A stretch of DNA of 44,126 nucleotides from an uncultured Fibrobacteraceae bacterium (GCA_964484595.1 CAZAHC010000001.1:1-44126), one strand, 5' to 3'; positions 1,393 through 41,085 are shown, numbered from the stretch's first letter. Notes: generated by a model not told the origin, from the sequence alone. Numbers and translations: made by a program.

Positions 1393-1451
1393 CGGGAACT
1401 TGCCCCGGCAGGGGCCCCTTGTTTTTCGGTTCAGGAGAGCTGCGGAATCTC

Positions 1452-11480: not shown

Positions 11481-12050
11481 TCAATCCAGGTAGATCGACT
11501 TCACCGAACCCCAGGTCGAATGTTCAGGTATGCAGGCGGGACGGTTGATCCCGGCCACCAGCGAGTTGGCGCCGATGGTGCGGGGCGTCATGGGAATCAG
11601 GTTGGATGGATCGGAGCCGTCGGCGTAGGCCGGCGTTCCCGCGATGCTCGGTTGCGAGCCGGGGTAGATGAAAAAGCCCACCGGATCCCCGCCCATCACC
11701 AGGACCGAAACCTGAGCTAGCTTGACGGCGAGGTCGGCCGGCAGCGGGTAGGCCAGACCGACCATGAAGTCGGTCAGGCTCGGCCCGGCGTTAACCGCCT
11801 GGCCGGCCAGGGTGACCGACAGGATCGAGACGTTCTCCGCCTCGAGCAGGCATTCCCAGCCGCCGACGCTCACGGACGGTTCCAGCAAGAGCAAGAACGC
11901 ATCGAGGGTGGAAAACTGCTCGGCCAGGATGCAGTTCTCCTCGCCCACCGTGTCGAAGAAAACGCCGACCTCGTCGCCGGCGCCGGCTAGGGCCGGCCAC
12001 AGCAGAAGCGCCGCCGCCAGCAGCGGCGCCAGCGAAACGCGAAAACTCAT
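11481..12050 (-). CDS. secreted protein, C-terminal TWG-tail family member P1 (same core subfamily as P5)
   Basis: ATG 12050 follows GGGAGGGGGG. The signal peptide is MSFRVSLAPLLAAALLLWPALAGAG. The mature N-terminus is VFFDTVGEENC, compared with P5 LYFDTGGEVNC. The tail is STWGSVKSIYLD-stop. Confidence 0.75.
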   Translation of the reverse strand: MSFRVSLAPLLAAALLLWPALAGAGDEVGVFFDTVGEENCILAEQFSTLDAFLLLLEPSVSVGGWECLLEAENVSILSVTLAGQAVNAGPSLTDFMVGLAYPLPADLAVKLAQVSVLVMGGDPVGFFIYPGSQPSIAGTPAYADGSDPSNLIPMTPRTIGANSLVAGINRPACIPEHSTWGSVKSIYLD

Positions 12051-12162
12051 TGGTTCCCCCCTCCCATCCCAAGGGGCCCGGGAATTTGCGTGGCAGGAGC
12101 TTCTAGCTGAAGATACCGAGGAGAAGGACATCCGTCCAGAGTGAGGAGGGGGTTGGTCCGAG

Positions 12163-27373: not shown

Positions 27374-29041
27374 TCAGGGCAAGACGAGTTCGCCGAGGGT
27401 CTGCCGCTTGTTGGGCGCCTCCGGATCGGCGAACTCGAAGAGCTGCCGCTGCTCGACCTGCGGGGCGGTTTCGGGAAGCAGGACGGCCAGCCGCGTTTGC
27501 ACCTCCGGCGCCAGCTCCGAGGTGATGAAAACCCGTGATCCTGATCCGAGAGCGACGGCCGCCGCTTCCCCCGCCGCGGCCAGGATCGACTGCTCGGGGT
27601 CGTAGCGATCCGACCGGGGCGGCGGCACCCCGAAGACGGTCATCTGCGGGCAGTGGTAGTCGACGCAGAGCCAGAGCCGATCCTCCCGCAGGATCACCAC
27701 GTCCCCCTCCCGGTACATCTGCCGCAGGTTCGTCAGGAGCGGCTGCTGCTCATCGCTGCGCCGGTGCTTGGGCAAGATCCCCCCGAGGAGATTGCCGGCC
27801 AGCAACCCGCAGACCACAACCAGAGGTACCAGTCTGGAAACAACCCCCAGTCTGCCGGCTCGGGTCTGGGGCCGTTGCCCCCAGCCCAGACCCGCCAGCA
27901 AGAGGAGACAGGGAACCACCGGCGCCCAGAACTTCCGGTTGCCTGGCTCCCACCAGATGGCCGCCGCCCCGAACACGGCCGCAAAGGCAAGCAGGAGCAG
28001 CAGTTGTCGCCGCCGCTCCCCTCCCGCGGTCCGGGCGAAAATAAGAGCCAGCACCAGGCCCCAGACCAGGAAAACGGCCAGGACCCCGATCGGCACCAGA
28101 GCCAGCCAGTAGCCGGTGCCGGGGATCGCGCCCTCGAAGAAGTAAGCCTTCAGGGCGTTGCCGCTCAGAAAGGCCAGGGTCAGCCCCCGCAGGGCGGCGG
28201 TCGAGAAAATCAGATCAGCCCGCCCGTAAACACCCGCGAACTCCTCCAGGTACCCGGTGGACCAGGCCAGGAAACGGACCGGATCCACCCGGTCCAGCGC
28301 CACCAGGGCCCCCAGCCCGTACAGCAGCAGAACCGCCCCCAGGCAAATGACCAGGAAGAGTGCGACTCGCCCGGACCTGCTGCCTGGTGGCGTCCTGAAC
28401 CAGATGACGACCGCGGAGATGGGGATCACGAAAATGAGGGCCTGGTGCACCAGCACGCCGAATACGTTGGCCAGTCCCAGCCACCTGACGCTGCCGGGCG
28501 TGGCTTCGGTCCGGCCCAGCAGGTCGAGCAGGAGGTAGAGGTTCAGGCAGGAGAAGCAGAGGAAGAAGGCGACGGGTTCACCCTGGCTCGCATAGTGCCA
28601 GGGCAGGTAGCTGAACCCGAAGCAGAGCAGGAAAACCCAGCCCAGAAATCCCCGCCCCACCAGCAAGACGGCACACCGGGCGAAGGCGATCAGCGCGCCG
28701 AGCGAACCGATCAGGCTGAAGGACTTAACGAGCGAATCGGCGGCGCCGCCGTAACCGAGCGCCCACCACATCTCGCACCACAGCTTGACCGCCGGCTCGT
28801 AGAGCAGATGGTGCGGATGAAGAAAATGCCCCCCCCAGGCGGAAGTCATGTCCCGGAAGTAGTAAAGGGCATCGATGGAAGCGACGCGCGAGCGGGTCAG
28901 CAGGTATACCGCACCGAAGCCCAGGATGATCACCAGGTATCTGACCCGATTGGTGGAAGAAAGGGGGCTTTCAGAGACCACCTGTTTCCCCTCGCTGGCA
29001 ATTCGCCGGATGGTTGGCAGATTCCAGGACAAAGCTAGCAA
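27374..29041 (-). CDS. large polytopic membrane protein, GT-C-fold glycosyltransferase-like
   Basis: The 555-aa protein has 12 or more TM segments. An acidic/aromatic first loop (IDALYYFRDM) and a soluble C-terminal domain give an architecture like the ArnT/PMT/DUF2723-type enzymes. The start (TTG 29041) is uncertain. Confidence 0.55.
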   Translation of the reverse strand: MLALSWNLPTIRRIASEGKQVVSESPLSSTNRVRYLVIILGFGAVYLLTRSRVASIDALYYFRDMTSAWGGHFLHPHHLLYEPAVKLWCEMWWALGYGGAADSLVKSFSLIGSLGALIAFARCAVLLVGRGFLGWVFLLCFGFSYLPWHYASQGEPVAFFLCFSCLNLYLLLDLLGRTEATPGSVRWLGLANVFGVLVHQALIFVIPISAVVIWFRTPPGSRSGRVALFLVICLGAVLLLYGLGALVALDRVDPVRFLAWSTGYLEEFAGVYGRADLIFSTAALRGLTLAFLSGNALKAYFFEGAIPGTGYWLALVPIGVLAVFLVWGLVLALIFARTAGGERRRQLLLLLAFAAVFGAAAIWWEPGNRKFWAPVVPCLLLLAGLGWGQRPQTRAGRLGVVSRLVPLVVVCGLLAGNLLGGILPKHRRSDEQQPLLTNLRQMYREGDVVILREDRLWLCVDYHCPQMTVFGVPPPRSDRYDPEQSILAAAGEAAAVALGSGSRVFITSELAPEVQTRLAVLLPETAPQVEQRQLFEFADPEAPNKRQTLGELVLP

Positions 29042-29163
29042 CGGCCGTTGACCGGATCAACCGCAGACCGCAGACCGGGTGGGATTGGCCGGAGGGGCCG
29101 GAATCTCCTATAATCGAACCCCCTGGTGCGGCCGGTGACCGGCCGGCCGGCTGAGAGGAGCAA

Positions 29164-30402
29164 ATGTCCGGGAAGGTCCTTCACCTGCTCTCGCAGAGAC
29201 CGTTGCTCACCGGCAGCGGGATCACCCTGGATGCCCAGGTCAGCTGCGCCAGCGCCGCCGGCTGGCAGCAGCGGGTGGTTTGCGGGATCCCTGCTGCCGA
29301 CCCGACCCCGGCGGTGGGAGACCTCCGGCCCGAGCACATCCACCCCCTGCTCTTCGAGACGCCCGACCTGGATTTCCCCCTGCCGGGAATGAGCGACGTG
29401 ATGCCCTATCGGAGCAGCCGCTTCTCCGCCCTCACGGCCGGCCAGCTCGACGGGTACCGCGATTCCTGGCGGCGGCACCTCGACGGGGTCCTGGCCAGCT
29501 TCCTTCCCGACGTGATCCATTCTCACCACGTCTGGTTGCTGAGCGCGCTGATCAAGGACCTGGCCCCGGAACTCCCCCTTGTCATCCAATGCCACGCCAC
29601 CGGGCTTCGCCAGATGGAACTTTGCCCCCACCTGGCCGAGGAGGTTTGCCTGGGGTGCCGGCGAGGCGACGGCTTCCTCGTCCTGCACCGCGGCCACGCC
29701 CGGGAGCTGGCTCGCCGGCTGGACGTGCCGGCAGGCAGGATCCACCTCGTCCGCACCGGGTTCCGCGAGGATCTGTTTCATGCGGCGGGCCTGGCCGCCG
29801 ATCGTTCCGGCCAGCTCCTCTACACCGGCAAGTACAGTGCAGCCAAGGGGCTCCCCGCGCTGCTCGACGCAGTGGAGGGTCTTTCAAGGCGTTTCCCCGG
29901 GATCCGCCTGCACGTGGCGGGCGGCGGCGCTGGCGAGCAGGCCGACCGGCTGCGGCGACGTATGCAGGCCCTCGCGCCGGTCGTCGTTCTGCACGGGCAG
30001 CTCCCGCAGGCCGAGCTCGCCGACCTGATGCGGCGCTGCGCCGTCTGCGTGCTGCCCTCCTTCTTCGAGGGAGTGCCCCTGGTGCTGGTCGAGGCGCTGG
30101 CGTGCGGCTGCCGTCTGGTGGCCACCGCCCTGCCCGGGGTGGAGGCGGAACTCGCGCCCCATCTCGGAAGCAACCTGGATCTCGTGCCACTTCCCCCGCT
30201 GCTGGGCCCGGATCAACCGGACCCACAGGGCCTGCCCACCTTCGTCGCCCGGCTGGAGACCACCCTGGGCGCCGCCCTGGCGAGACGACCGCTGGACGGC
30301 TCGAACCTGCCCCGGCCGGAGGCGCTGGACCCCTTCACCTGGCGAGCGGCCTTCGCGAGAGTGGAGGCGATATGGCGGGAGAGCTCAGGGAGCTCAGGCT
30401 GA
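29164..30402 (+). CDS. GT4-family (GT-B fold) glycosyltransferase
   Basis: The RBS is GAGAGGAG. Supporting stretches are GSGITLDAQ, LLYTGKYSAAKGL and VLPSFFEGVPLVLVEALACGCRLVAT (the EX7E region). Confidence 0.85.
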   Translation: MSGKVLHLLSQRPLLTGSGITLDAQVSCASAAGWQQRVVCGIPAADPTPAVGDLRPEHIHPLLFETPDLDFPLPGMSDVMPYRSSRFSALTAGQLDGYRDSWRRHLDGVLASFLPDVIHSHHVWLLSALIKDLAPELPLVIQCHATGLRQMELCPHLAEEVCLGCRRGDGFLVLHRGHARELARRLDVPAGRIHLVRTGFREDLFHAAGLAADRSGQLLYTGKYSAAKGLPALLDAVEGLSRRFPGIRLHVAGGGAGEQADRLRRRMQALAPVVVLHGQLPQAELADLMRRCAVCVLPSFFEGVPLVLVEALACGCRLVATALPGVEAELAPHLGSNLDLVPLPPLLGPDQPDPQGLPTFVARLETTLGAALARRPLDGSNLPRPEALDPFTWRAAFARVEAIWRESSGSSG

Positions 30403-31230: not shown

Positions 31231-34200
31231 CTAGCCACTTCCACCGATGAGGCGGTAATAGGCCCAGAAGTAAGGATGTTCCCAGCGCCCGCCGGCGGCG
31301 CGCACGTCCTGCTGGGCCATCCTCAACGCCACCGCCTTGGTTTCACCGGCGAGCCAGTGGCCGTAGAAGCGTTCGGCCAGGAAGCGGGAGGCCTCGTCGT
31401 CGACCCGCAGGGTCGAGGCGATCACCGAGCGAGCGCCCGCCTGCAGGAACGCGCCCGCAAAATCCATCAGGCCGGTGCTGGCCCCGGAAAGCCGCCGCGA
31501 CGCCTCGCAGCAGGACAGGTAGACCAGGTCCGCGTTCAGAACCAGCTTGCCGACGGCGGGGATCGTCAGCTGCGGGGCTCCTTCCCCCCCGGCGAACCGG
31601 ATGGTCGAACGGGTCGGCAAGCCCTGAAAAGCGACGGCGTGGGTGGCGATGTGAAGCACCGCGAAGCGCTCCAGGCCCGAGCCGGCCACCTGGTCCCAGC
31701 TCGCCTCCCGGCCGACCCTGAGGACCGCCTCGCCTCCGGACCAGAGGTCGGCCACACCCCTGGCCTCGGACTCGGCGTGATGCAGGGCGCGTGAACCCGC
31801 CGCCGGCAGGCCCCTATCAGCGCTGTCGATGCCCAGAGCCAGCAGCGACCCACGGCCCACCGGGATTCGGCCAGGCGGCACGGCCTCCTCCAGCCCGAAG
31901 GAGACCAGGCAGGGCGCCTCGACCACCGGGCCGTGGTCCAGGGCCACCTTCGCCCCGGCGGAGTCCGCGGGCCGGGGCAGGAAGAGTCCGCTCCAGGGCA
32001 TGCCGAACAGCAGATCGTCCGGGATGATCAGGAGCGTCGAGCCCTCGCGCCAGTGGGAAACCACCGGTCCCAGTAGAACCTGGCCCAGGCGATGGGCGGC
32101 CCCGGGTTCGACCGGGCGGGCGGGGTTCTCCATGTCCGCCAGCGTGGGCAGAAGCAACTCGTTGAGTTCCCGGCGCGCAGGCAGGGCGAGCAGGTCCACC
32201 CGTCCGGCGGCAACCACCCAGGCAAAGGACCGCGTCCTGCCGACGAAAAAGGCCAGCAACGGGGATCGGCGCTGGTCCAGCAGCACCTGGAGGACCGGCC
32301 CGGGATCGCCCCCCCTCCCGCGCCCGCTCCCTCCGTGGCGATTCTGCTCGGCCAGCAGGAAGGTGTGCCGGCCGAGATCCTCTGCCGGCAGAAGCTCCGC
32401 ATGGTCGAGATAAAGACCGATCAGAGCCTCCGTGGCGTCCCGAAGGAGGTTCCCGCAGAACGAGCGCAGCTCGCCGACCTGGGACCGTCCCTCCTCCTCC
32501 CGGCCCAGCTCCAGCGCCCGCAGGAACGACACCTCGGCCCGGCGCCACTCGCCGAGGGCCGCCTGCGCCAGACCGGTCTCGACCTCCAGCCGGGCCCGCA
32601 GGTCGGCGGGGGAACGGCTGACACAGAGACCGCGAGCACGCTCGAAGTAGGCGAGAGCCTCGGCGAACTCCCCGGCCCGGGAACAGGACATGCCGAGGAA
32701 GAGGAGCGAGGAGAGCCTGGTCCGGAAACGGCCACCGAAGGCGGAATCGGCGCCGTGGTCCAGGAAGAGTTCCCGCGCCTGGACGAATTTTTCTTCCAGG
32801 AGCAGGACGTGTCCGAAGTGAAAGCGACTCCTGGCCAGCTGGTCGGAATTTCCCGCCTCCCCGGCCAGGGAGAGACTGGCGGCGAAGGATTCCCGGGCCG
32901 AACCGATGTCCCCGCGCAGGAGGGCGAGTTCCCCGGCGCTACGCAGGTACTCCCACTCCTGGCCGGTCCCGCCGCCGGCCGCCACCGCCTCCCGGGCCCG
33001 GACGTGGGCTTCGGCGGCCAGGCGGAACTCACCCTGGCGAGCCAGGAAATCGGCGGTGGCGATCTCGAAATCGGCCACCAGGTTCTTGTCGGGTTCGCTG
33101 TCGTGGAGAACGCCCCGCAGCTGCCGGAGCCGGTCGATGGCGCGGTAGGCGACCTCCGCCTGTCCTCGCTCCAGCCCTTGCCGGATCAGCCTCAACAGAA
33201 GCTCGGCCTCGTCGACGGCGAGGCTGGCGACCGACAGCCCGGCCCGGGCCTCGCTCAGCAACGATTCGGCGGCCGCGTAATCACCGATCTGGCAGAAATA
33301 CTCCGCCTCGAACCGAGGCAACAGGGCGCGGTTTCGCGGGTGGGGGAAGAGGTCCACCCAACTGCGCGCGCGGCGCAGGTAGACCCGGCAGGAATCGAGT
33401 TGCCCCAGCAGGCGGAAATCGTCGGCGATGTTCACCAGGCTGCGCGGCGTGTTCATCGAGTCGGCCACCGCCAGGTTGTACCCGAATACCATCCGGTCGA
33501 TCTCAAGGGCTTGCTCGGGACGGCCGAGGTTACCGCACACCGAAGCGGCCAGGTCGGCGCTGTGGGCATAGAGCCAGGGATAGTTGCCGGCCGCGGCGGC
33601 GGCCAGGCACTCCTCCAGGATCGCCAGGGCCTCGCCGTATTCCCGCCTGGTGGCCAGTATGTTCGCGATCGTGACCCGGGAGCGGAGTGTGCAGTAGGCG
33701 GAGCCGGATCTTCCCGCCATGGCGCCGCTCAGGGCGGCGGCGTGCAAGGCATCGTCCAGCCGGTCGTCCCGGAGCAGGAACCGGGCGATATCGAGCCAGA
33801 GGTAATATTCGGCGAAACACCCACCCAGAGCCCTGGCCTGCCGAATCCCGCCCAGCAAACGCTCGACCGCAGCGAGGTTCCGGCCGGCGTGACTCTCGAC
33901 CAGGGCCAGCTTGCGCTCCAGCCAGATCTGTTGCAGCGAATCGAGACCCGCCCGGCCCCGTTCGGCCCGGCGATAAAACTCCCCCCGATCACCGTACCGG
34001 TAAAAACGTCGTCCCCTTACGAAGGCGCCAACCGGCCCGGTGGTGTCCGCCAGGGCCGGCAGGGCATACATCTCGTTGCGTTCTCCGGTCCGCCGCAGCA
34101 GACCATTGTACCTGGTCGCCAGACCGATCCAGAGGAAATTCTCGGGATCGGACCGCCAGAGGGCATACAGCTCGTCCCCCGCCTCTTGCCGGGAAGCAGG

Positions 34201-34482
34201 CCGCTTGATCCGCACTGCCAGGTCCCGGTACCGCTTCACATCCCGTACCGTCCGGTTCGTCGGCCGGGTTTCCGGCAGGGAGGAGTATCCCGCGGCGATG
34301 GCGGCTTGCAGGTCCGCCGACAGGGGAACCCCCTGCAGATCGAAGAAGGGGGACGGCCCCCCCTCCGGTTCGGCCTGCCGCTCGCCGCAGCCCGGTAGGG
34401 CCAGCAGCGCCACCGCCAGGAACAACCAGGACCAGGTCCGGGCCGCCGCGACGAAACTCGCCTGTCCTCCGCAAACCGTCAC
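31231..34482 (-). CDS. TPR-repeat / CHAT-domain (caspase-like peptidase) protein, probable lipoprotein
   Basis: The C-terminal CHAT region has VLHIATHAV and LVYLSCCEAS (His/Cys dyad) and ends HPYFWAYYRLIGGSG. The long N-terminal region is TPR-like. The likely start is GTG 34482, giving MTVCGGQASFVAAARTWSWLFLAVALLALPGC. The track start at 34572 overlaps the sigma gene. Confidence 0.85.
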   Translation of the reverse strand: MTVCGGQASFVAAARTWSWLFLAVALLALPGCGERQAEPEGGPSPFFDLQGVPLSADLQAAIAAGYSSLPETRPTNRTVRDVKRYRDLAVRIKRPASRQEAGDELYALWRSDPENFLWIGLATRYNGLLRRTGERNEMYALPALADTTGPVGAFVRGRRFYRYGDRGEFYRRAERGRAGLDSLQQIWLERKLALVESHAGRNLAAVERLLGGIRQARALGGCFAEYYLWLDIARFLLRDDRLDDALHAAALSGAMAGRSGSAYCTLRSRVTIANILATRREYGEALAILEECLAAAAAGNYPWLYAHSADLAASVCGNLGRPEQALEIDRMVFGYNLAVADSMNTPRSLVNIADDFRLLGQLDSCRVYLRRARSWVDLFPHPRNRALLPRFEAEYFCQIGDYAAAESLLSEARAGLSVASLAVDEAELLLRLIRQGLERGQAEVAYRAIDRLRQLRGVLHDSEPDKNLVADFEIATADFLARQGEFRLAAEAHVRAREAVAAGGGTGQEWEYLRSAGELALLRGDIGSARESFAASLSLAGEAGNSDQLARSRFHFGHVLLLEEKFVQARELFLDHGADSAFGGRFRTRLSSLLFLGMSCSRAGEFAEALAYFERARGLCVSRSPADLRARLEVETGLAQAALGEWRRAEVSFLRALELGREEEGRSQVGELRSFCGNLLRDATEALIGLYLDHAELLPAEDLGRHTFLLAEQNRHGGSGRGRGGDPGPVLQVLLDQRRSPLLAFFVGRTRSFAWVVAAGRVDLLALPARRELNELLLPTLADMENPARPVEPGAAHRLGQVLLGPVVSHWREGSTLLIIPDDLLFGMPWSGLFLPRPADSAGAKVALDHGPVVEAPCLVSFGLEEAVPPGRIPVGRGSLLALGIDSADRGLPAAGSRALHHAESEARGVADLWSGGEAVLRVGREASWDQVAGSGLERFAVLHIATHAVAFQGLPTRSTIRFAGGEGAPQLTIPAVGKLVLNADLVYLSCCEASRRLSGASTGLMDFAGAFLQAGARSVIASTLRVDDEASRFLAERFYGHWLAGETKAVALRMAQQDVRAAGGRWEHPYFWAYYRLIGGSG

Positions 34483-34560
34483 CCGTCCTCCCTGTTCGCC
34501 GGTGAACCAGGATCTCCAGGTTTCTGGACAAAAACCCACGGGATGGAATAACCTTGAATC

Positions 34561-35220
34561 ATGACCAATCAACCCAAACCGGCGCCCGGGAACGACCCCG
34601 ACCTTGCCCGTGCCGTTGCCGCTTACCTGGCCGGGGATGAATCGGCCGCGGACGGACTATACCACCTGCTGCACGGTCCGGTCCATGCCGAGGCCCAGCA
34701 GTTCCTGGCCCGGGACAACATCGATTTCGACGACATCGTCCAGGATTCCCTGCTGGCCGTGCTCGACTACGTGCGGAAGAACGGAGGTTTCTCGGGCGAT
34801 CTGATCAAGTTCGCGGTCACCGTCGTGCGGAACCGCTGCCGGAACCTCCTGAACTCCCGCCAGAGGTGGCGCCAGGTCCCGATCGAGACGTTGCGAGATC
34901 GGTTGACCTCCGCCCTTTTGCGTAACCCTCTGGAAGCGCTCGAGGACGCGGAAATCCGCGGCCTGGTGCAGGAGGCGCTCGACCAGCTCGGACCCGAGTG
35001 CCGAGCCCTGCTGCACGCCCTGTACCGCCAGGGCAAGGCGTGCAAGGAAATGATCGGTCCCCTGGGGTTGAAATCGGTGCACGGAGTGTACCGCCGCCGG
35101 TCGTCCTGTCTGCTGCAGCTGAATCGGATTGTCAAAAAACGCCTGGATATTTGTTCATCTCCCAAGGGGAAAAGGCCGCTGCGGTCCACCGGGACCGCCG
35201 GGCCCAAGGCCAGGAAGTGA
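34561..35220 (+). CDS. ECF-type sigma-70 family RNA polymerase sigma factor
   Basis: Region 2-like sequence is DDIVQDSLLAVLDYV and region 4-like is ECRALLHALYRQGKACKEMIGPLGLKSVHGVYRRRSSCLLQL. It is transcribed divergently from the CHAT gene. Confidence 0.85.
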   Translation: MTNQPKPAPGNDPDLARAVAAYLAGDESAADGLYHLLHGPVHAEAQQFLARDNIDFDDIVQDSLLAVLDYVRKNGGFSGDLIKFAVTVVRNRCRNLLNSRQRWRQVPIETLRDRLTSALLRNPLEALEDAEIRGLVQEALDQLGPECRALLHALYRQGKACKEMIGPLGLKSVHGVYRRRSSCLLQLNRIVKKRLDICSSPKGKRPLRSTGTAGPKARK

Positions 35221-35222
35221 TC

Positions 35223-35996
35223 ATGAGCCCCACCGACAACGACCCGGGTTTCTTCGAGTGCGTCGACCCCGCCGTCGGAGATCTGGTCTGGCGGTACAGC
35301 GAACCGGACCTGGATCCGGCCCTGCGTCGCAAGCTGACCGATCACGTGGCCATCTGTGACGCCTGCCGGTGGGACCTGGGCCTGGAACAGGCCGTCCTGT
35401 CCGGCCTGCAGGACCGGACCCTGCAGGTCGACCCTCCCCGGCAGGGTCTTTTCTCCCCCTTCCGGCACCGGCGCCGCGCCGCCGCCAGGTCCCTCCGGGC
35501 CGCCGGCGGACTGGCCCTGGCCGCCAGCCTGGCGCTGATGCTGCTCCTGTCTCCCTCCGCCCCCGACGGCGACCTCGTCGACCGTGGCGGAGATGACCTT
35601 CTCCGCATCCTCCGGCCCGTCGAGAGCGAGGTGGTTTTCCAGACCGGTCCCCGCATCGTCTGGACGCCGCTGCCGGACGCGGTCAGGTACAAGGTCACCC
35701 TGCGGCAGGCCGGCGGCTCGTTCGCCTGGATCGATTCCACCTCCGCCACCGAGATCCGGGTTCCCCGCAACGCCTCGCTGCCCCGTCGCGCCCGGATCCG
35801 CGCCTTCGTCGAGCCCTTCCCGCCCGACCTGGCGCCGCCCCGCGGCGTCAGCGTTTCCTTCCGCACGGGTTCTCCCGCCGCCTTCTTCCTCTACCGCCTG
35901 GGCGCCGCCCCGCCGCCGGTACGCTTGCTGGCCGTGGTGGGCCTGGGCCTGCTAGCCGCTGGCGTAATGTCCGCCTGGCTGCTGCGCCGGCCCTAG
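35223..35996 (+). CDS. putative anti-sigma factor (zinc-finger type), single-pass membrane protein
   Basis: ATG 35223 lies 2 nt after the sigma-gene stop. It has an HVAICDACRW (HX3CX2C) motif, a central TM (LALAASLALMLLL), a periplasmic domain and a second C-terminal hydrophobic segment. Confidence 0.65.
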   Translation: MSPTDNDPGFFECVDPAVGDLVWRYSEPDLDPALRRKLTDHVAICDACRWDLGLEQAVLSGLQDRTLQVDPPRQGLFSPFRHRRRAAARSLRAAGGLALAASLALMLLLSPSAPDGDLVDRGGDDLLRILRPVESEVVFQTGPRIVWTPLPDAVRYKVTLRQAGGSFAWIDSTSATEIRVPRNASLPRRARIRAFVEPFPPDLAPPRGVSVSFRTGSPAAFFLYRLGAAPPPVRLLAVVGLGLLAAGVMSAWLLRRP

Positions 35997-36434: not shown

Positions 36435-36463
36435 GCGAGGGGGGTGCTTCGCCCCCCCCTCGC
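36435..36463. terminator. GC-rich hairpin between convergent genes, with a U tract only for the minus-strand transcript (P5)
   Basis: GCGAGGGGGG (36435..36444) pairs with CCCCCCTCGC (36454..36463). An A6 run at 36429..36434 becomes U6 after the hairpin on the minus-strand RNA. Confidence 0.5.
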
Positions 36464-36561: not shown

Positions 36562-37161
36562 CTACCGGAACAGCGCCTTGAGACTGCCCCAGGTGACCCC
36601 CCGGTTGGGAATGACACCGCCGCAATCGCAGTTGATGCAGCCAACCGGCAGCGTGTAATCGCCGCTGGAGGGGGTCAGAAACTCCCAGTCGGCCATGAGG
36701 TTCCATTCCCCGCAGTAATAACCCGGGTTCTTCAGAGGCGGGGGCTGCTGGCCCGCGTAGGGACCCAGGTAGAAGAAGACCGGCTCAAAAGACAGGGGCA
36801 GGATGGTTACCTCGAGAACCTGTACGGCAGGGGCACCGGTGAAATCGAGCCCGCCGACGGTCCAGTGGCCCTGGGGATAGTCCGGAATCCATATGCCACC
36901 ACCGGTGGGTACGTAGTCGACGATCACGCCGTCAATGGGCGCGTAGGACACGCCGAATCCCCAGCCGTTAACGCAGGCAAGCTTGGGATTGGTGATCGTT
37001 ACCCAGCCGGTGACCGGAACGCCCGGAGTCGCGTCCACGCAGTTGACCTCCCCCCCGGTGTCGAAGTAGAGGCCGAAGCTGTTCAGAGCCGGATCGATCT
37101 GGGCCAGGGTGAGCGCAGGGAGCAGCAGGGCGAGACTGAAGACGATGCCTGGGTACCTCAT
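36562..37161 (-). CDS. secreted protein, C-terminal TWG-tail family member P5 (same core subfamily as P1)
   Basis: The RBS is GGAGGAG. The signal peptide is MRYPGIVFSLALLLPALTLAQ. The mature N-terminus includes LYFDTGGEVNC. The tail is GVTWGSLKALFR-stop. A candidate extended -10 (TGATACAAT on the minus strand) lies at 37211..37219. Confidence 0.75.
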   Translation of the reverse strand: MRYPGIVFSLALLLPALTLAQIDPALNSFGLYFDTGGEVNCVDATPGVPVTGWVTITNPKLACVNGWGFGVSYAPIDGVIVDYVPTGGGIWIPDYPQGHWTVGGLDFTGAPAVQVLEVTILPLSFEPVFFYLGPYAGQQPPPLKNPGYYCGEWNLMADWEFLTPSSGDYTLPVGCINCDCGGVIPNRGVTWGSLKALFR

Positions 37162-37272
37162 GAGTGCTCCTCCGGGAAGGTGGCCAACGGTCCGCCGCGT
37201 TTCCGGGGTAATTGTATCACAACCGGGGCCGGGAATTCATTAGCCCGGACTATTGAATCGTGGCGGGGTGGC

Positions 37273-38754
37273 TCAATCAGGCGCGGATAACCGCACCCAT
37301 CTTGCTTCACGCATGCCGGGGACGACCTCGCGAATGGCGGCCTCGACCGCCTCATCGTAGGGTCGCCACACACCGGTGCGGCCGGTCAGCCAGCAGACGG
37401 CAACGTTGTCGGTGAAGACCGGCCCCGGCGGCCAGGATCCCACTTCCCGGGCCAGCGCCGCGATCGAGGGTTCCTGCCGCCGGATCTCCGCCAGCCGGAC
37501 CGCTTGCCCGCCCAGATGCGGTGGCGCCCAGAGGATCGCGAGGCCAGCCAGGGCAGCCAGGAGCAGCGCGCGCCAGCGCGAACGCAGGGCAAGCCGGCGG
37601 GTCTCCTGGGTGGCCAGGAGCACGGTCTCCCAGGCCAGAACCGGCAGCAACACCAGTACGTGGCGGACTTCCTGGGACAGGAGGGCGTACACGAGGATCA
37701 GCCCGCCCAGGGTGAGCCCGAGCAGGGCGGTCGGACCGGCCGCCCGCAGCTTGCCGTGGCGCCGCCTCCGGCGCCAGGAAGCGCCAGCGAGAACGAGCAC
37801 CCCTCCCCAGACCGGCCAGGGCAGCCAGTGGCCGAGGGTTTCCAGGAAGAAGCGGATACCGTGGCGGACCTTGAGCAGGGTGGGCAAGAGGTTTGCCTGC
37901 AGGTTGGCCAGCGGCGGTTCCGGGGTCAGTCCGCGCAGCCGGGGGTATTCCCACCAGTTCTCCGCCAGATCCAGCTGCAAGGCGTAGGACAGCGGATTGA
38001 AGAGGGGAGAACCGGCGACCCGGGAAACATGAATCCACCAGGGCGCCGTCAGCAGGAGCCACATCCCGCAGGACACCGCCAGGTATAGCCGCAGGCGAGG
38101 CCAGCCGAACCAGCGGCGGTGCGGCGTGGACAGGACCGCGGCCAGCCACCAGAGGGCCGGCACCCATACGAGATCGATCCGCAGGAGAGTCAGGATCCCG
38201 ACCAGGGCGCCGTCGACCAGGGCGGTTCGCAGCCCGGCGGCGAACGGGTTCCGGTCGCGCAGACGCAACCAGAGGGCCAGCAGGAGAAAGGCGCAGGCAA
38301 CCTCCACCCAGCCCCAGTTCACGGCCAGACCCAGCAGGGGATTGAACAGCAGCAGGAGCAACCAGGCCGGCCCGGCGAACGCGGCGCCCCGCCGGAAAAA
38401 TCCGCCGAGTCCCAGCCAGACCGTCAGGGCCAGCAGACCGATCTGGAGAACACGCACCGCCTGCCGGGCCAGTTTGGGATCGCTGTCCACGGCCAGCAGC
38501 GCGGAGGTGAGCAACAGGGCGAACCCGGGTGAACGATGCAACAGCGGCTGGGGCAACTGCCGACCCCACTCGTAGGTGGTGGTCAGCGGGTAGATCACGT
38601 CGCAGCTCAGCCCGTCGCCCTCCAGGAGATTCCGGGCCACGCTGAGATGGTCGTACACATCCGCGCCGGCGTCCCAAGGCTCGGCAGGGTAAAGCAGCAA
38701 CCAGACGACGAGGAAGCAGAGGCCCGCCGCCGCGCCAGCCCGACCAGTGGTCAA
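37273..38754 (-). CDS. GT-C-fold glycosyltransferase-like polytopic membrane protein (ArnT/PMT-like)
   Basis: The 493-aa protein has about 12 TM segments. The first loop, PWDAGADVYDHLSVARNLLEGDG, resembles the acidic loop plus YxxxA motif of the ArnT/PMT family. The TTG start follows GAGGAGGAGGG. Confidence 0.6.
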   Translation of the reverse strand: MTTGRAGAAAGLCFLVVWLLLYPAEPWDAGADVYDHLSVARNLLEGDGLSCDVIYPLTTTYEWGRQLPQPLLHRSPGFALLLTSALLAVDSDPKLARQAVRVLQIGLLALTVWLGLGGFFRRGAAFAGPAWLLLLLFNPLLGLAVNWGWVEVACAFLLLALWLRLRDRNPFAAGLRTALVDGALVGILTLLRIDLVWVPALWWLAAVLSTPHRRWFGWPRLRLYLAVSCGMWLLLTAPWWIHVSRVAGSPLFNPLSYALQLDLAENWWEYPRLRGLTPEPPLANLQANLLPTLLKVRHGIRFFLETLGHWLPWPVWGGVLVLAGASWRRRRRHGKLRAAGPTALLGLTLGGLILVYALLSQEVRHVLVLLPVLAWETVLLATQETRRLALRSRWRALLLAALAGLAILWAPPHLGGQAVRLAEIRRQEPSIAALAREVGSWPPGPVFTDNVAVCWLTGRTGVWRPYDEAVEAAIREVVPGMREARWVRLSAPD

Positions 38755-38782
38755 GATCCCTCCTCCTCTTTGCCTGCCCGGG

Positions 38783-39868
38783 TTACCCGCTCAGCCATCC
38801 CGGCAAAATCTCCACCAGGTGTCCGGCCGTGAAAACCTGCGGTGTTATCGCCTGTAGCAGCAGCACCAGCGCCAGCCGCCGGCGAAAAGGGGCGCCGCCC
38901 TCGCGCAACCCCGCTGCCACCGCCGGCAACAGGCACGGGAACGCCAGCGCCGCCAGCCGCGACGAGTCGTAAGCAAACAAGAACTGGCCGCCGACGCCGA
39001 CCAGCAGCAGCGCCAGGCCCAGCAAATCCGCCCGGTTGCCCTCCCGCCACAGCCACCGGGCGTGCCAGAGCGGCAGCAGCCACAGCCACTGGAATGCCGA
39101 CAGGAAACCCAAAGGTTGCCAGGGCCAGGCGAGCCTCAGGTTCACCAAGGGATCGGCCAGCAGGGGCTGCAGGTAGTAACCCAGCGAATGCTCCACCTCA
39201 CGGTGGGACAGGATCGCCTGATGCGCCAGCAGCCAGATCGCGACGGCCAGCGGGATCCCCAGCAGGATCACGCGGCGGCGACCCGGAGCCGGCCCCGCTT
39301 CCCGCCACAACAACCACCCGAGCCAGGGCAGCAGAAAAAGCGCCCGCTCGTGATTCAGCAGGGCCAGCAGGAAGCAGCCAATCGCCGCCCCGGGCCGCGC
39401 CCTCCCCACCCAGGCGCCGAAAATCAGCAGATAGGTCACCACGTCGGTCAATCCACCATGGTGCAGGGAGGTGCGGGTCAGGAGCGTCAGACCGGGGACG
39501 CCGGCCGTGAGCAGGGCGTCATAGGCGCCGCTGCCGCACCGCAAGGCCCAGCGGGCCGCAACCGCGGGCAGCAGCACGCAGCAGAAAGCGATCAGCACCA
39601 GCAGGCCCTCCCCGCGCAGGCCCAGCAGCCAGGCCAGCAGGGGAGTCAGGAACCGGGGGGCCATCGCGTTGGGCGAGGTACCGAAGGGATCGGCAGCCAG
39701 CTGCACGTTGAGAATTCCCATGAGACTCTCGGGCATCCGGGCGGGGGCGGCCACCAGCGTGGCGACCAGGGTCACCAGCAGACCCGCCACCAGCGAAAAC
39801 GGCCAGGGGCCGAGGCGGGAAAGGAGGCGATCCGGAAGGTCGGTCACCGTCTGCAGGGAGATGGTCAT
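38783..39868 (-). CDS. polytopic membrane protein (about 9-10 TM), unknown function
   Basis: ORF 38783..39868 starts at ATG 39868. It is very hydrophobic and Trp/Leu rich, with conserved-looking loops LHHGG and LNHERALF. It lies 28 nt upstream of the GT-C-like gene on the same strand. Confidence 0.6.
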   Translation of the reverse strand: MTISLQTVTDLPDRLLSRLGPWPFSLVAGLLVTLVATLVAAPARMPESLMGILNVQLAADPFGTSPNAMAPRFLTPLLAWLLGLRGEGLLVLIAFCCVLLPAVAARWALRCGSGAYDALLTAGVPGLTLLTRTSLHHGGLTDVVTYLLIFGAWVGRARPGAAIGCFLLALLNHERALFLLPWLGWLLWREAGPAPGRRRVILLGIPLAVAIWLLAHQAILSHREVEHSLGYYLQPLLADPLVNLRLAWPWQPLGFLSAFQWLWLLPLWHARWLWREGNRADLLGLALLLVGVGGQFLFAYDSSRLAALAFPCLLPAVAAGLREGGAPFRRRLALVLLLQAITPQVFTAGHLVEILPGWLSG

Positions 39869-40006
39869 GGTCGGACCATGCTAACCCGTGAGTTTCGTCG
39901 GGGCAAGCGCAGCCCGACCGGCCGGCGCTTTGAATCCCGGAGACAGCGTACAAGCGCCAGTGGGGTCACAATTTTGTAGATTTTTTCTGAAAAAACTGCG
40001 CCAGGG

Positions 40007-40036
40007 TTGAAAATGCACCTCAGGAAATGGTAAAAT
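40007..40036 (+). promoter_or_regulatory. strong sigma70-type promoter TTGAAA-N18-TAAAAT
   Basis: The -35 box is at 40007..40012 and the -10 box at 40031..40036, inside a local AT-rich island. The next + strand gene starts about 250 nt downstream at 40294. Confidence 0.5.
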
Positions 40037-40293
40037 GTCGGAAGCTAGGGGGTTTCCAGACAATCGGTCGGATCCTGGGCGCTTTCCGCGCCGGTTTTTG
40101 GCGTACCCTCTGGAATGTCGCTTTCACCGGAAACCGGTCGTCCGGGTGTTGCGCCTAGTTGGGAGGAGCTTCTCTGACCCGCAATCCACTCCCGTAGCTG
40201 CTACCCGCAGGTCAGGGGGAGATCCGGGGCAGGGTTGCGCAACGGCTTTTCGCAACCGATCCTGGCGACCAGACAACCTATTGGAGGAACATC

Positions 40294-41013
40294 ATGAGGA
40301 AACTGTGCATGCTCACAATCGCAACCCTGTGCTTGAGTCTGCTGGCGGGCAGCGCCCTCGCCGAGCGGACCGTCGTGCCCACGCCCATCGGCGAGCTGGA
40401 ACTGCAGACCGCCGGCGTCGAGCGCAGCCGCCAGGACTGCACTGTCGGCAACCTCAACACACCTTCCTACATCGTCGGCGGCTGGTTCACCGGCGGCGAG
40501 GGCTACAAGTACCTCTTCAACCCCTTCGAGCAGAACTGTTACTGCCCGCTGGGATTCCAGCTCGAAACGGTCTCGATGATGCTCAACTTCCCCGACACGG
40601 CCACCTTCCCCATCGTGTTCACGGCCTATGTCGACCTGGAAGAGGCCGTCTGGGACGGGAACTGCTGGATTCCGGGACCGGAGCTCTGCGTGAGCGATGT
40701 TTACCAGATCCAGATCGACGAGCCAGGAGCCTACACGATCACCTTGCCGATCGTCTGCGACTGCGCGTTCATGGACTTCTTCTACTTCCTCTCGTTCCAC
40801 TTCATCGACCAGTTCGAGGCGGAGCTGATCACCTGTGATGAGCCCCTGCCCTGCACGGGCTACAACGACTGGGGCAGCGGCTGGGCCGACCTGTTCTTCT
40901 ACGGATTCGACACCATCGGCCTTCCCGTCATCACCGGTGACGTCATCTGCTGCGACTTCCCGGTCGACACGGAGGGCAACACCTGGGGCGGCGTCAAGAC
41001 CCTGTACAAGTAA
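40294..41013 (+). CDS. secreted Cys-rich protein, C-terminal TWG-tail family member P6
   Basis: The RBS is GGAGGAA. The signal peptide is MRKLCMLTIATLCLSLLAGSALA. The tail is GNTWGGVKTLYK-stop. Confidence 0.8.
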   Translation: MRKLCMLTIATLCLSLLAGSALAERTVVPTPIGELELQTAGVERSRQDCTVGNLNTPSYIVGGWFTGGEGYKYLFNPFEQNCYCPLGFQLETVSMMLNFPDTATFPIVFTAYVDLEEAVWDGNCWIPGPELCVSDVYQIQIDEPGAYTITLPIVCDCAFMDFFYFLSFHFIDQFEAELITCDEPLPCTGYNDWGSGWADLFFYGFDTIGLPVITGDVICCDFPVDTEGNTWGGVKTLYK

Positions 41014-41052: not shown

Positions 41053-41085
41053 GGGGCGGGAGGCAAAGGCCTCCCGCCCCTTTTT
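41053..41085 (+). terminator. rho-independent terminator of P6
   Basis: GGGGCGGGAGGC-AAAG-GCCTCCCGCCCC (41053..41080) is followed by TTTTT (41081..41085). Confidence 0.8.

What the first reader, a model, noticed from the sequence alone, without database searches (positions are those of the whole stretch)
36562..41013. Two tail-family genes flank an ArnT/PMT-like GT-C enzyme and a second uncharacterised polytopic membrane protein
The minus-strand order is the 361-aa polytopic membrane protein, then 28 nt, then the 493-aa GT-C-like protein, then P5. P6 is transcribed divergently from the 361-aa gene from its own strong promoter. GT-C enzymes use polyprenyl-phosphate sugars to modify periplasmic acceptors, including protein Ser/Thr (PMT family) and, in eukaryotes, Trp (C-mannosylation by DPY19, also GT-C). 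The tail has an invariant Thr-Trp-Gly. A speculative reading is that this is a substrate/enzyme cassette in which the tail, or the Thr/Trp within it, is glycosylated or used to tether the protein to a glycolipid.
Basis: inference. Interest (0 to 1): 0.65.

Follow-up and report, generated by a model that had tools for sequence, protein, structure and literature searches.

The report
Paired GT-C glycosyltransferases, coincidental tail neighbours
Two adjacent genes encode membrane enzymes of the type that attach sugars to cell-envelope molecules; the small secreted "tail" proteins on either side belong to a very common, widespread family, and no related genome keeps them next to these enzymes.

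Summary
P5 is at 36562-37161(-). The 493-aa protein (M493) is at 37273-38754(-). After a 28-nt gap comes the 361-aa protein (M361) at 38783-39868(-). P6 is at 40294-41013(+).

No Pfam, NCBIfam or PDB sequence match exists for any of the four. Confident AlphaFold models place both membrane proteins in the GT-C glycosyltransferase fold. M493 is closest to ArnT (E 2e-6). M361 is closest to Pmt4, ALG12 and AglB (E about 1e-2). So the "second polytopic protein" is also GT-C-like.

M361 followed by M493 is a conserved, often overlapping gene pair in 8 of 14 independent contexts, all from Krumholzibacteria-type metagenome genomes.

The proposed substrate/enzyme cassette fails its own test:
- Only this window has tail genes adjacent to the pair.
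- 120 tail loci from other genomes contain no M493 or M361 relative.
- The two closest P6 homologues lie in unrelated contexts.
- The tail occurs across FCB candidate phyla, far beyond the tiny range of the two enzyme families.

The tail is attached to at least 69 unrelated protein bodies. In longer P6 homologues a T9SS sorting domain or a dockerin sits at the C-terminus instead. It therefore behaves like a modular sorting or anchoring signal.

Verdict: a new lineage-specific GT-C pair of unknown acceptor, with coincidental neighbours.

The parts
36437..36459 (-). Terminator-like hairpin downstream of P5. It is the likely end of the M361-M493(-P5) transcript.
   Evidence: 8-pair stem with 7 GC pairs, followed by a T-run.
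36562..37161 (-). P5, a 199-aa secreted tail protein. Its body is related only to the window's 216-aa tail protein (11481-12131) and a few others.
   Evidence: body cluster of 5. One search found no other relative in 5.8 billion proteins. A GGAGG Shine-Dalgarno sequence lies upstream of the ATG.
36562..36594 (-). C-terminal tail of P5: T-W-G-S-L-K-A-L-F-R-stop.
37162..37272 (-). 111-nt spacer between M493 and P5. No terminator-like site was found, so co-transcription of P5 is possible in this genome.
37273..38754 (-). M493, an ArnT-like GT-C-fold membrane glycosyltransferase. It has about 12-13 membrane helices and a small C-terminal alpha/beta domain. D32 in the first outside loop is invariant. 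A flexible loop (248-288) carries invariant W268, Y270 and R274.
   Evidence: AF2 pLDDT 87.5, pTM 0.90. ArnT 5ezm/5f15 E 2e-6, TM 0.52-0.58, followed by ALG12, AglB, ALG9, AftB and PglB; invariant residues.
38755..38782 (-). 28-nt gap between M361 and M493. In homologous loci the two genes overlap or lie 16 nt apart.
38783..39868 (-). M361, a compact (about 11 helices) GT-C-fold membrane protein with no soluble domain. Its invariant polar residues (H136, D142, E174, D239, D301, E353) fall on the predicted periplasmic side.
   Evidence: pLDDT 81, pTM 0.82; the top nine matches are all GT-C (Pmt4, ALG12, AglB, AftA, STT3, ALG3, Pmt1/2), E 8e-3 to 0.15, prob >=0.98; invariant residues. The topology is my inference and the positive-inside rule.
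40007..40036 (+). Sigma-70-like promoter match for P6, 258 nt upstream of its ATG.
   Evidence: Rfam finds nothing in the leader.
40294..41013 (+). P6, a 239-aa secreted tail protein. It belongs to a widespread body family of 219 representative clusters.
40981..41013 (+). C-terminal tail of P6: T-W-G-G-V-K-T-L-Y-K-stop.
41053..41080 (+). Strong terminator-like hairpin after P6.
   Evidence: 12-pair stem with 11 GC pairs, followed by a T-run.

Best explanation
M361 and M493 form a lineage-specific two-gene operon, found in Krumholzibacteria-type bacteria, that encodes two integral-membrane glycosyltransferases of the GT-C fold. By analogy with every characterised GT-C enzyme, they would take a sugar from a polyprenyl-phosphate carrier at the outer face of the inner membrane and transfer it to an envelope acceptor. 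The acceptor could be a lipid A or LPS-core position, another envelope glycan, or a protein; it is not identified here. M493 is the ArnT-like catalytic enzyme, with Asp32 as the probable catalytic residue. M361 is either a second transferase or an obligate partner. P5 and P6 are two of six window members of an abundant family of small secreted proteins found across FCB phyla. These proteins carry a modular C-terminal peptide, P-[VT]-x-[VT]-E-x-S-T-W-G-x-[IVL]-K-x-L-[YF]-R, which behaves like a sorting or anchoring signal. Their position beside the GT-C pair is a local accident of gene order in this genome, not a functional cassette. Shown here: the genes, the folds, the conserved pairing, and the lack of conserved linkage to tail genes. 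Inferred: donor type, membrane face, catalytic residue, and the tail's role.
For: - Fold: AF2 models are confident (pLDDT 87.5 and 81). All significant Foldseek PDB matches are GT-C enzymes. For M493 they are ArnT at E 2e-6, then ALG12, AglB, ALG9, AftB, PglB, STT3 and Pmt4. For M361 they are Pmt4, ALG12, AglB, AftA, STT3, ALG3 and PimE.
- Catalytic residues: M493 has an invariant Asp (D32) 11 residues after the first membrane helix, at the start of the first loop helix. GT-C catalytic Asp residues sit in this position (my knowledge of PglB, ArnT and Pmt structures).
- Sequence relation: two M493 homologues weakly hit DUF2142, E 0.007.
- Pairing: M361 followed by M493, adjacent and overlapping or no more than 28 nt apart, occurs in the window, L005/8, L006, L007, L011, L136, L140 and L142.
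- No linkage: no tail ORF is adjacent in any of the 13 other contexts. There is no M493 or M361 hit in 120 tail loci. The neighbour census is heterogeneous. Polytopic neighbours number 12/193 against 12/425, p=0.07. The P6 homologues P0028 and P0031 lie in unrelated contexts.
- Tail as a modular signal: 129 tail proteins fall into 69 body clusters, and they have signal peptides. P6-body homologues end in Por_Secre_tail/FlgD_ig or Dockerin_1 instead of the tail.
Against: - No sequence-level family membership exists for either protein, so the GT-C assignment rests on predicted structures.
- M361's statistics are modest (best E 8e-3), and its first-loop Asp (D60) is replaced by Asn or Ala in 4 of 11 homologues.
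- No polyprenyl-phosphate sugar synthase (GT2) or GtrA-type flippase lies beside the pair in the window.
- Both flanks being tail genes has only about a 2% naive chance.
- No terminator-like site separates M493 from P5, so P5 may be co-transcribed with the enzymes here.
- Several homologous loci have a large secreted protein or lipoprotein directly upstream of M361: a T9SS-CTD protein in L008 and L142, and lipoproteins in L007, L140 and L011. This leaves room for a protein acceptor.
Confidence: 0.7

Rival explanations
1. Substrate/enzyme cassette. P5 and P6 are acceptors of M361/M493, which glycosylate the tail's Thr or Trp or tether the tail to a glycolipid.
For: Tail genes lie on both sides of the pair, and P5 may be co-transcribed because no terminator lies between M493 and P5. 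GT-C enzymes include protein O- and C-mannosyltransferases, and Pmt4 appears among the fold matches. A variant-tail gene lies 6.2 kb from the pair in L008.
Against: Adjacency is seen in 1 of 14 contexts. There are 0 hits in 120 tail loci. P6 homologues lie elsewhere. The tail is FCB-wide whereas the enzymes form tiny families. The tail has no WxxW motif. No DPY19 structure is among the matches, and ArnT, a lipid-acceptor enzyme, is the best match.
Confidence: 0.06
2. Lipid A or LPS-core modification specifically. M493 would be a functional ArnT or EptA-type analogue that adds a cationic or neutral sugar to lipid A for envelope charge remodelling, with M361 as a helper.
For: ArnT is the best and only strongly significant structural match, aligning over nearly the full length (542-562 columns, TM 0.52-0.58). 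M493 has a small C-terminal soluble domain like ArnT.
Against: No ArnT, PMT or PMT_2 profile match. No arnA-F-like genes were found in 44 kb. Identity to ArnT is only 14%.
Confidence: 0.2
3. General protein O-glycosylation. The pair would decorate secreted or surface proteins broadly, in a PMT- or TMEM260-like manner and not tail-specifically.
For: M361's best match is Pmt4. Secreted proteins or lipoproteins lie immediately upstream of M361 in L008, L142, L007, L140 and L011. A distant M361 homologue precedes a chaperone-usher fibre cluster in L144.
Against: The upstream neighbours are unrelated to one another, and T9SS-CTD proteins are very common in these genomes. There is no MIR domain or PMT profile.
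Confidence: 0.15
4. M361 is not a transferase. It would instead be a non-catalytic membrane partner, scaffold or lipid-carrier handler for M493.
For: The first-loop Asp is not conserved. The fold-match statistics are weak. Six M493 lineages lack an adjacent M361.
Against: Six invariant polar or acidic residues lie on the predicted periplasmic face (plus the topology inferred). The top nine fold matches are all GT-C enzymes with prob >=0.98.
Confidence: 0.25

Closest known systems
ArnT (GT83; 4-amino-4-deoxy-L-arabinose transferase, PDB 5ezm/5f15)
   Same: M493 shares the overall GT-C fold over nearly its full length. It has an Asp at the start of the first periplasmic loop helix, a flexible conserved periplasmic loop carrying an Arg, and a small C-terminal soluble domain.
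   Different: Identity is 14%, with no PMT or PMT_2 profile match. The periplasmic domain is much smaller. No arn pathway genes are nearby. It is paired with a second GT-C-like protein.
Protein O-mannosyltransferases (GT39; Pmt1/2, Pmt4) and bacterial PMT_2 proteins
   Same: M361's membrane core matches the Pmt4 transmembrane domain (TM 0.53). PMT enzymes also work as pairs (Pmt1-Pmt2).
   Different: No MIR domain and no Pfam PMT or PMT_2 hit. The DE motif in loop 1 is not conserved in M361.
ER and mycobacterial lipid-linked mannosyltransferases (ALG3/9/12, PimE)
   Same: They are compact GT-C enzymes without a large soluble domain, like M361, and are among the top matches for both proteins.
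   Different: Their acceptors are lipid-linked oligosaccharides or PIMs, which are not known in this lineage. There is no sequence relationship.
DPY19 Trp C-mannosyltransferase (GT98)
   Different: It is not among the top 50 fold matches of either protein. The tail lacks the WxxW/C acceptor motif.
Three-component periplasmic glycosylation systems (GtrA/GtrB/GtrC; CsbB/GtcA/YfhO)
   Same: They fit the proposed mechanism: a GT-C enzyme uses a polyprenyl-P-monosaccharide outside the membrane to decorate an envelope polymer.
   Different: No GT2 synthase or GtrA flippase lies adjacent in the window. Only L001 has a divergent GT2-TPR gene.
T9SS C-terminal sorting domains (Por_Secre_tail/FlgD_ig) and dockerins, as comparators for the tail
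   Same: They occupy the extreme C-terminus of signal-peptide proteins with many unrelated bodies. Longer homologues of the P6 body end in these modules rather than in the tail.
   Different: The tail is about 17 residues, not a 70-100-aa folded domain, and matches no Pfam or NCBIfam model. Its machinery is unknown.

Membership tests
GT-C glycosyltransferase superfamily (fold level) | Polytopic membrane core with the conserved GT-C helix arrangement | tested here: met
   M493: Foldseek ArnT E 2e-6, and 22 GT-C matches precede any non-GT-C match. M361: the top nine matches are all GT-C, but best E is only 8e-3 and TM 0.53. Both results rest on AF2 models.
GT-C glycosyltransferase superfamily (fold level) | Conserved acidic catalytic residue in the first extracytoplasmic loop | tested here: inconclusive
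   M493 D32 is invariant in 15 of 15 sequences. M361 D60 is Asp in 7, Asn in 3 and Ala in 1 of 11. The equivalence to catalytic residues was inferred from position and was not superposed.
GT-C glycosyltransferase superfamily (fold level) | Uses a polyprenyl-phosphate-linked sugar donor | not testable with these tools
   Needs biochemistry.
ArnT / GT83 and PMT_2 sequence families | Match to PF02366 or PF13231 (or the NCBIfam ArnT models) | tested here: not met
   No hit at E<=1 for the window proteins. No hit at E<=10 for any of the 15 or 11 homologues, apart from weak DUF2142 in two. A PDB profile search found no GT-C chain; its single hit was an unrelated enoyl-ACP reductase at E 0.67.
ArnT / GT83 and PMT_2 sequence families | Genomic association with the Ara4N pathway (arnA-F) | tested here: not met
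   None was found among the Pfam-annotated genes of the 44-kb window or the homologous loci. The rest of the genome was not seen.
PMT (GT39) protein O-mannosyltransferases | MIR-domain luminal loop and a loop-1 Asp-Glu motif | tested here: not met
   No MIR or PMT Pfam hit. No soluble loop domain appears in the models.
DPY19 (GT98) C-mannosyltransferases | DPY19 fold or profile, and a WxxW/C acceptor motif | tested here: not met
   No Pfam hit and no DPY19 entry among the top 50 fold matches. The tail has a single Trp in T-W-G-x-h-K.
Conserved substrate/enzyme gene cassette (tail protein + GT-C) | Co-location conserved across genomes | tested here: not met
   Adjacent in 1 of 14 M493 contexts. 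0 of 120 tail loci have an M493 or M361 relative. PMT_2 occurs in 2 of 150 tail-gene neighbours. The P6 homologues lie in other contexts.
Conserved substrate/enzyme gene cassette (tail protein + GT-C) | Matching phyletic distribution of enzyme and substrate | tested here: not met
   The tail occurs in Eisenbacteria, Krumholzibacteriota, Zixibacteria, Latescibacterota, Fibrobacteraceae, Ignavibacteria and Neomarinimicrobiota. The enzyme families have only 15 and 11 proteins.
T9SS C-terminal sorting domain (for the tail) | Folded CTD of about 70-100 aa matching Por_Secre_tail or TIGR04183 | tested here: not met
   P5 and P6 have no Pfam or NCBIfam hit. The conserved tail is about 17 residues.

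The most novel reading that the evidence does not exclude
In this Krumholzibacteria-type lineage the M361/M493 GT-C pair acts on tail-bearing secreted proteins. P5 would be co-transcribed with the enzymes, and the pair would glycosylate the conserved Thr/Trp or link the tail to a glycolipid. The FCB-wide tail would then be a glyco-anchoring signal, served by different GT-C enzymes (for example the abundant PMT_2-TPR proteins) in other phyla.
Probability: 0.05. Interest if true: 0.75.

Novelty: new member of a known kind. Interest (0 to 1): 0.25.

Why it matters
The result adds two unclassified, lineage-restricted families to the GT-C glycosyltransferase superfamily and shows that they work as a conserved gene pair. 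This is useful for annotating Krumholzibacteria-type genomes and for CAZy-style classification. It is an incremental finding. The more interesting by-product is that the "tail" is a modular C-terminal peptide found across FCB phyla on at least 69 unrelated secreted protein bodies. In longer homologues of the P6 body, a T9SS sorting domain or a dockerin sits at the C-terminus instead. This points to an undescribed sorting or anchoring signal whose machinery is unknown, but that machinery is not the GT-C pair examined here.

Tried and rejected
- Sequence-family assignment of all four proteins (Pfam, NCBIfam, PDB sequences, profiles of the homologues) found nothing beyond a weak DUF2142 hit in two M493 homologues.
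- Profile-profile comparison of M493 with M361, the window's 555-aa polytopic protein and the L003 608-aa neighbour showed no relationship.
- A homologue search for P5 found only P5 itself.
- A strict tail regex on M493 and M361 loci found no hits. Relaxing it found one variant (SFGDLKLLFR) in L008/L010, 6.2 kb away.
- I tested a generalised idea that tail genes sit next to polytopic or glycan enzymes. Enrichment was marginal and not significant (p=0.07). The polytopic neighbours were a mix of transporters, SpoIIE phosphatases, MurJ and a few PMT_2-TPR proteins.
- An Rfam scan of the window, including the long P6 leader, found nothing.
- Literature searches for the tail motif, or for sorting signals in these phyla, found nothing relevant.
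- I first suspected the window's 770-aa polytopic protein beside two other tail genes of being another GT-C. It has no Pfam hit and no significant PDB sequence hit, so this remains unresolved.
Full report
**Observation**

The region contains exactly the four genes described.
- P5: 36562-37161(-), 199 aa.
- M493: 37273-38754(-), 493 aa, TTG start.
- M361: 38783-39868(-), 361 aa.
- P6: 40294-41013(+), 239 aa.

All four have the high third-position GC (0.81-0.90) typical of real genes in this 66% GC window. The M361 stop and the M493 start are 28 nt apart.

P5 and P6 have N-terminal hydrophobic signals and end in T-W-G-x-h-K-x-h-[FY]-[RK]-stop. Four more proteins in the window carry the same ending: 11481-12131, 21105-21854, 21851-22417 and 24685-25782, all on the minus strand. 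Outside the tail, P5 and P6 are not detectably related. P5 resembles only the 216-aa tail protein.

One sigma-70-like site, TTGAAA-18-TAAAAT with a TG extension, lies at 40007-40036(+). It is 258 nt upstream of the P6 start and is the only such match in 5 kb. Terminator-like hairpins follow P6 (41053-41080) and P5 (36459-36437). None lies in the 111-nt spacer between M493 and P5. P5 could therefore be co-transcribed with the two membrane-protein genes in this genome.

**What the two membrane proteins are**

Neither protein, nor P5 or P6, matches any Pfam or NCBIfam model at E<=1. Neither membrane protein matches any PDB chain by sequence.

Homologue searches returned small families. M493 has 15 proteins at 44-68% identity, all about 500 aa. 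M361 has 11 proteins. None carries a precomputed Pfam domain, and the few with source names are called "hypothetical protein". The only organism labels are Candidatus Krumholzibacteriia and "Gemmatimonadales" MAGs.

Profiles built from these families match no GT-C chain in PDB sequences; the only hit was an unrelated enoyl-ACP reductase at E 0.67. Scanning every member against Pfam gave only a weak DUF2142 hit (E 0.007) in two M493 homologues.

AlphaFold2 models built on the family alignments are confident. M493 has mean pLDDT 87.5 and pTM 0.90. M361 has pLDDT 81 and pTM 0.82.

Foldseek against the PDB places both in the GT-C glycosyltransferase fold.
- M493 is closest to ArnT (5ezm/5f15: E about 2e-6, TM 0.52-0.58, aligned over about 550 columns).
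- ALG12, AglB, ALG9, AftB, PglB, STT3 and Pmt4 follow, and 22 GT-C entries appear before the first unrelated fold.
- The top nine matches of M361 are all GT-C: Pmt4, ALG12, AglB, AftA, STT3, ALG3 and Pmt1/2. Probabilities are >=0.98, but E-values are modest (8e-3 to 0.15) and the best TM is 0.53.

The "second uncharacterised polytopic protein" is most likely a second, compact GT-C protein.

M493 has an invariant Asp32 eleven residues after its first membrane helix, at the start of the first loop helix. It also has a low-confidence, presumably mobile, loop (248-288) carrying invariant W268, Y270 and R274. From my knowledge of PglB, ArnT and PMT structures, these are the positions where GT-C enzymes place the catalytic Asp and the lipid-phosphate-binding basic residue. 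This equivalence is inferred and was not superposed.

In M361 the corresponding Asp60 is Asn or Ala in four of eleven homologues. However, six invariant polar residues (H136, D142, E174, D239, D301, E353) fall on the side I infer to be periplasmic. M361 may be catalytic with a different base, or it may be a non-catalytic partner. M493 and M361 are not detectably related to each other by profile comparison.

**The conserved unit**

I recovered 14 independent genomic contexts of the M493 family.

In eight of them, M361 lies immediately upstream on the same strand. These are the window, L005/8/9/10/134, L006/135, L007, L011/12, L136, L140 and L142. The two genes overlap by 10-19 nt or are separated by 16-28 nt, which is the signature of a co-translated pair.

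In six contexts (L001/2, L003, L004, L137/8, L139, L141) M493 stands without an adjacent M361.

Nothing else is conserved around the pair. The neighbours include:
- a T9SS-CTD protein (L008, L142);
- paralogous lipoproteins (L007, L140);
- a BNR-propeller lipoprotein whose gene overlaps M361 (L011);
- a GT2-TPR gene (L001);
- a 6-TM protein of unknown family (L003);
- pyrimidine-synthesis genes (L004).

**Test of the cassette idea**

Both were observed.

1. No ORF ending in the tail motif lies in any of the 13 other M493/M361 contexts, which carry up to 7-8 kb of flanking DNA per side where the contig allows. The exception is one 177-aa protein with a variant ending (SFGDLKLLFR) 6.2 kb upstream of M361 in L008/L010.

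The named records among them are labelled Eisenbacteria (the most frequent label), Krumholzibacteriota, Zixibacteria, Latescibacterota, Fibrobacteraceae, Ignavibacteria (including the cultured Rosettibacter primus), Neomarinimicrobiota and others.
   - Nearly all matches are genuine C-termini of 130-430-aa ORFs with signal peptides.
   - HMMs of the M493 and M361 families find nothing in those 120 loci.

3. A Pfam census of 150 immediate neighbours of tail genes gave 103 different families. None occurred in more than four neighbours, and PMT_2 occurred in two.
   - Polytopic proteins are 12/193 neighbours against 12/425 other genes, p=0.07.
   - The polytopic ORFs found in the tail loci are mostly transporters, SpoIIE phosphatases and MurJ, with four or five PMT_2-TPR proteins.

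4. P5 has no homologue outside this organism. P6 belongs to a family of 219 representative clusters. Its two closest members with retrievable context (49% and 45% identity) sit next to a sulfatase-family gene and GAPDH genes, or next to an RRM protein and a T9SS-CTD protein. Neither is next to a GT-C gene.

5. The phyletic ranges do not match. The tail spans many FCB phyla, while the two enzyme families hold 15 and 11 proteins out of 5.8 billion.

6. Six of about 44 genes in this window are tail genes. Tail neighbours are therefore not rare. Both flanks being tail genes has a naive chance of about 1.7% (my arithmetic), and the pattern was chosen after looking.

**What the tail looks like instead**

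From 149 distinct tails the consensus is P-[VT]-[PA]-[VT]-E-x-[ST]-T-W-G-x-[IVL]-K-[AS]-L-[YF]-R-stop. The T, W, G, K, L, [YF] and final basic positions were partly fixed by the search pattern. The upstream P-V/T-P/A-V/T-E was not.

After the last 22 residues are removed, 129 full-length tail proteins fall into 69 BLAST clusters. The tail is therefore a module attached to many unrelated secreted bodies.

Longer homologues of the P6 body carry further domains and end in one of two known C-terminal modules:
- a T9SS-type sorting domain (Por_Secre_tail/FlgD_ig: P0088, P0104, P0122, P0128);
- dockerin repeats (P0164, P0167, P0173).

The tail thus occupies the position that known C-terminal sorting or anchoring modules occupy. 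I infer that it is a sorting, anchoring or recognition peptide whose machinery is unknown. I found no description of it.

**Best explanation and rivals**

Most likely (about 0.7), M361-M493 is a lineage-specific operon of two GT-C-fold enzymes. They would transfer sugar from a polyprenyl-phosphate donor to an envelope acceptor at the periplasmic face, with M493 as an ArnT-like catalytic subunit. The tail genes would be coincidental neighbours.

Within that frame the acceptor is open:
- a lipid A or LPS-type acceptor is favoured by the ArnT match (about 0.2);
- a protein acceptor is favoured by the Pmt4 match and by secreted-protein genes upstream in several loci (about 0.15);
- M361 may be a non-catalytic partner (about 0.25).

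**Novelty and score**

Both proteins are new, unclassified families within a well-known enzyme superfamily, and their pairing is conserved. This is a new member of a known kind and is of modest interest (0.25).

The tail family itself is the more unusual feature. It is a separate finding and is not explained by these two genes.

Noticed in passing
window 11481-12131, 21105-22417, 24685-25782, 36562-37161, 40294-41013; loci L013-L132: The C-terminal tail (consensus P-[VT]-x-[VT]-E-x-S-T-W-G-x-[IVL]-K-x-L-[YF]-R-stop) occurs across FCB candidate phyla on signal-peptide proteins. These proteins fall into 69 unrelated body clusters and sometimes form tandem arrays (seven in 8 kb in L054). No Pfam or NCBIfam model or paper describes it.
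   Followed up: partly
P0088, P0104, P0122, P0128, P0164, P0167, P0173, P0138 (homologues of P6, window 40294-41013): The P6 body is also the N-terminal module of large secreted proteins that end in a T9SS sorting domain or dockerin repeats instead of the tail. In P0138 the body region matches Pfam DUF7451 (E 1.6e-10).
   Followed up: yes
L021:3540-5768, L077:4116-6344, L124:2652-5231, L037:1953-4481; window 24160-24642: Membrane-bound GAF-SpoIIE phosphatases (PDZ-7TM-GAF-SpoIIE in L124 and L037; polytopic GAF-SpoIIE without a PDZ hit in L021 and L077) lie beside tail genes in four loci from different phyla. A STAS gene follows the 365-aa tail gene in the window. PDZ domains read C-terminal peptides, so a tail/PDZ sensing link is conceivable but untested.
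   Followed up: no
window 18632-25782 (-): A second tail-gene neighbourhood has this order: 365-aa tail protein, STAS, Wzy_C/O-antigen-ligase-like 467-aa protein (22711-24114), two tail proteins (188 and 249 aa, overlapping by 4 nt), then an 11-TM 770-aa protein with no family match.
   Followed up: partly
window 40007-40293: The only promoter-like site for P6 lies 258 nt upstream of its ATG, implying a long 5' leader. Rfam finds nothing there.
   Followed up: partly
window 27374-30402: A 555-aa polytopic protein with a weak TMEM260-like hit (a GT-C protein O-mannosyltransferase family, E 0.019) is divergently adjacent to a GT4 glycosyltransferase (29164-30402). This may be another envelope glycosylation locus.
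   Followed up: no
window 1419-2786 (+): A POTRA-domain ORF (1419-1955) and an Omp85-barrel ORF (2073-2786) are in the same frame and separated by stop codon(s). This could be a split BamA/TamA-like gene, a pseudogene or an assembly error.
   Followed up: no
L144:1927-8532: A distant M361 homologue (P0026, about 33-36% identity) lies directly upstream of a chaperone-usher-type cluster with DUF4402 subunits, a PapD_N chaperone and a 950-aa putative usher.
   Followed up: no
L004:11179-12849, L138:3694-5265, L139:13830-15116, L141:11191-12684: In the M493 lineages that lack M361, a Wzi-like (capsule-assembly outer-membrane protein) gene lies 2-6 kb downstream on the opposite strand. This may be shared synteny or a functional hint towards surface polysaccharide.
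   Followed up: no
L008:1282-1815 (also L010): A 177-aa P5-like protein ends in a variant tail, S-F-G-D-L-K-L-L-F-R. The Trp of the tail is therefore not strictly invariant across the family.
   Followed up: partly
window 31231-35996: A 1113-aa TPR-CHAT protein lies next to a divergent ECF-type sigma factor (34561-35220) and a zf-HC2 anti-sigma-like gene, immediately upstream of the region studied.
   Followed up: no
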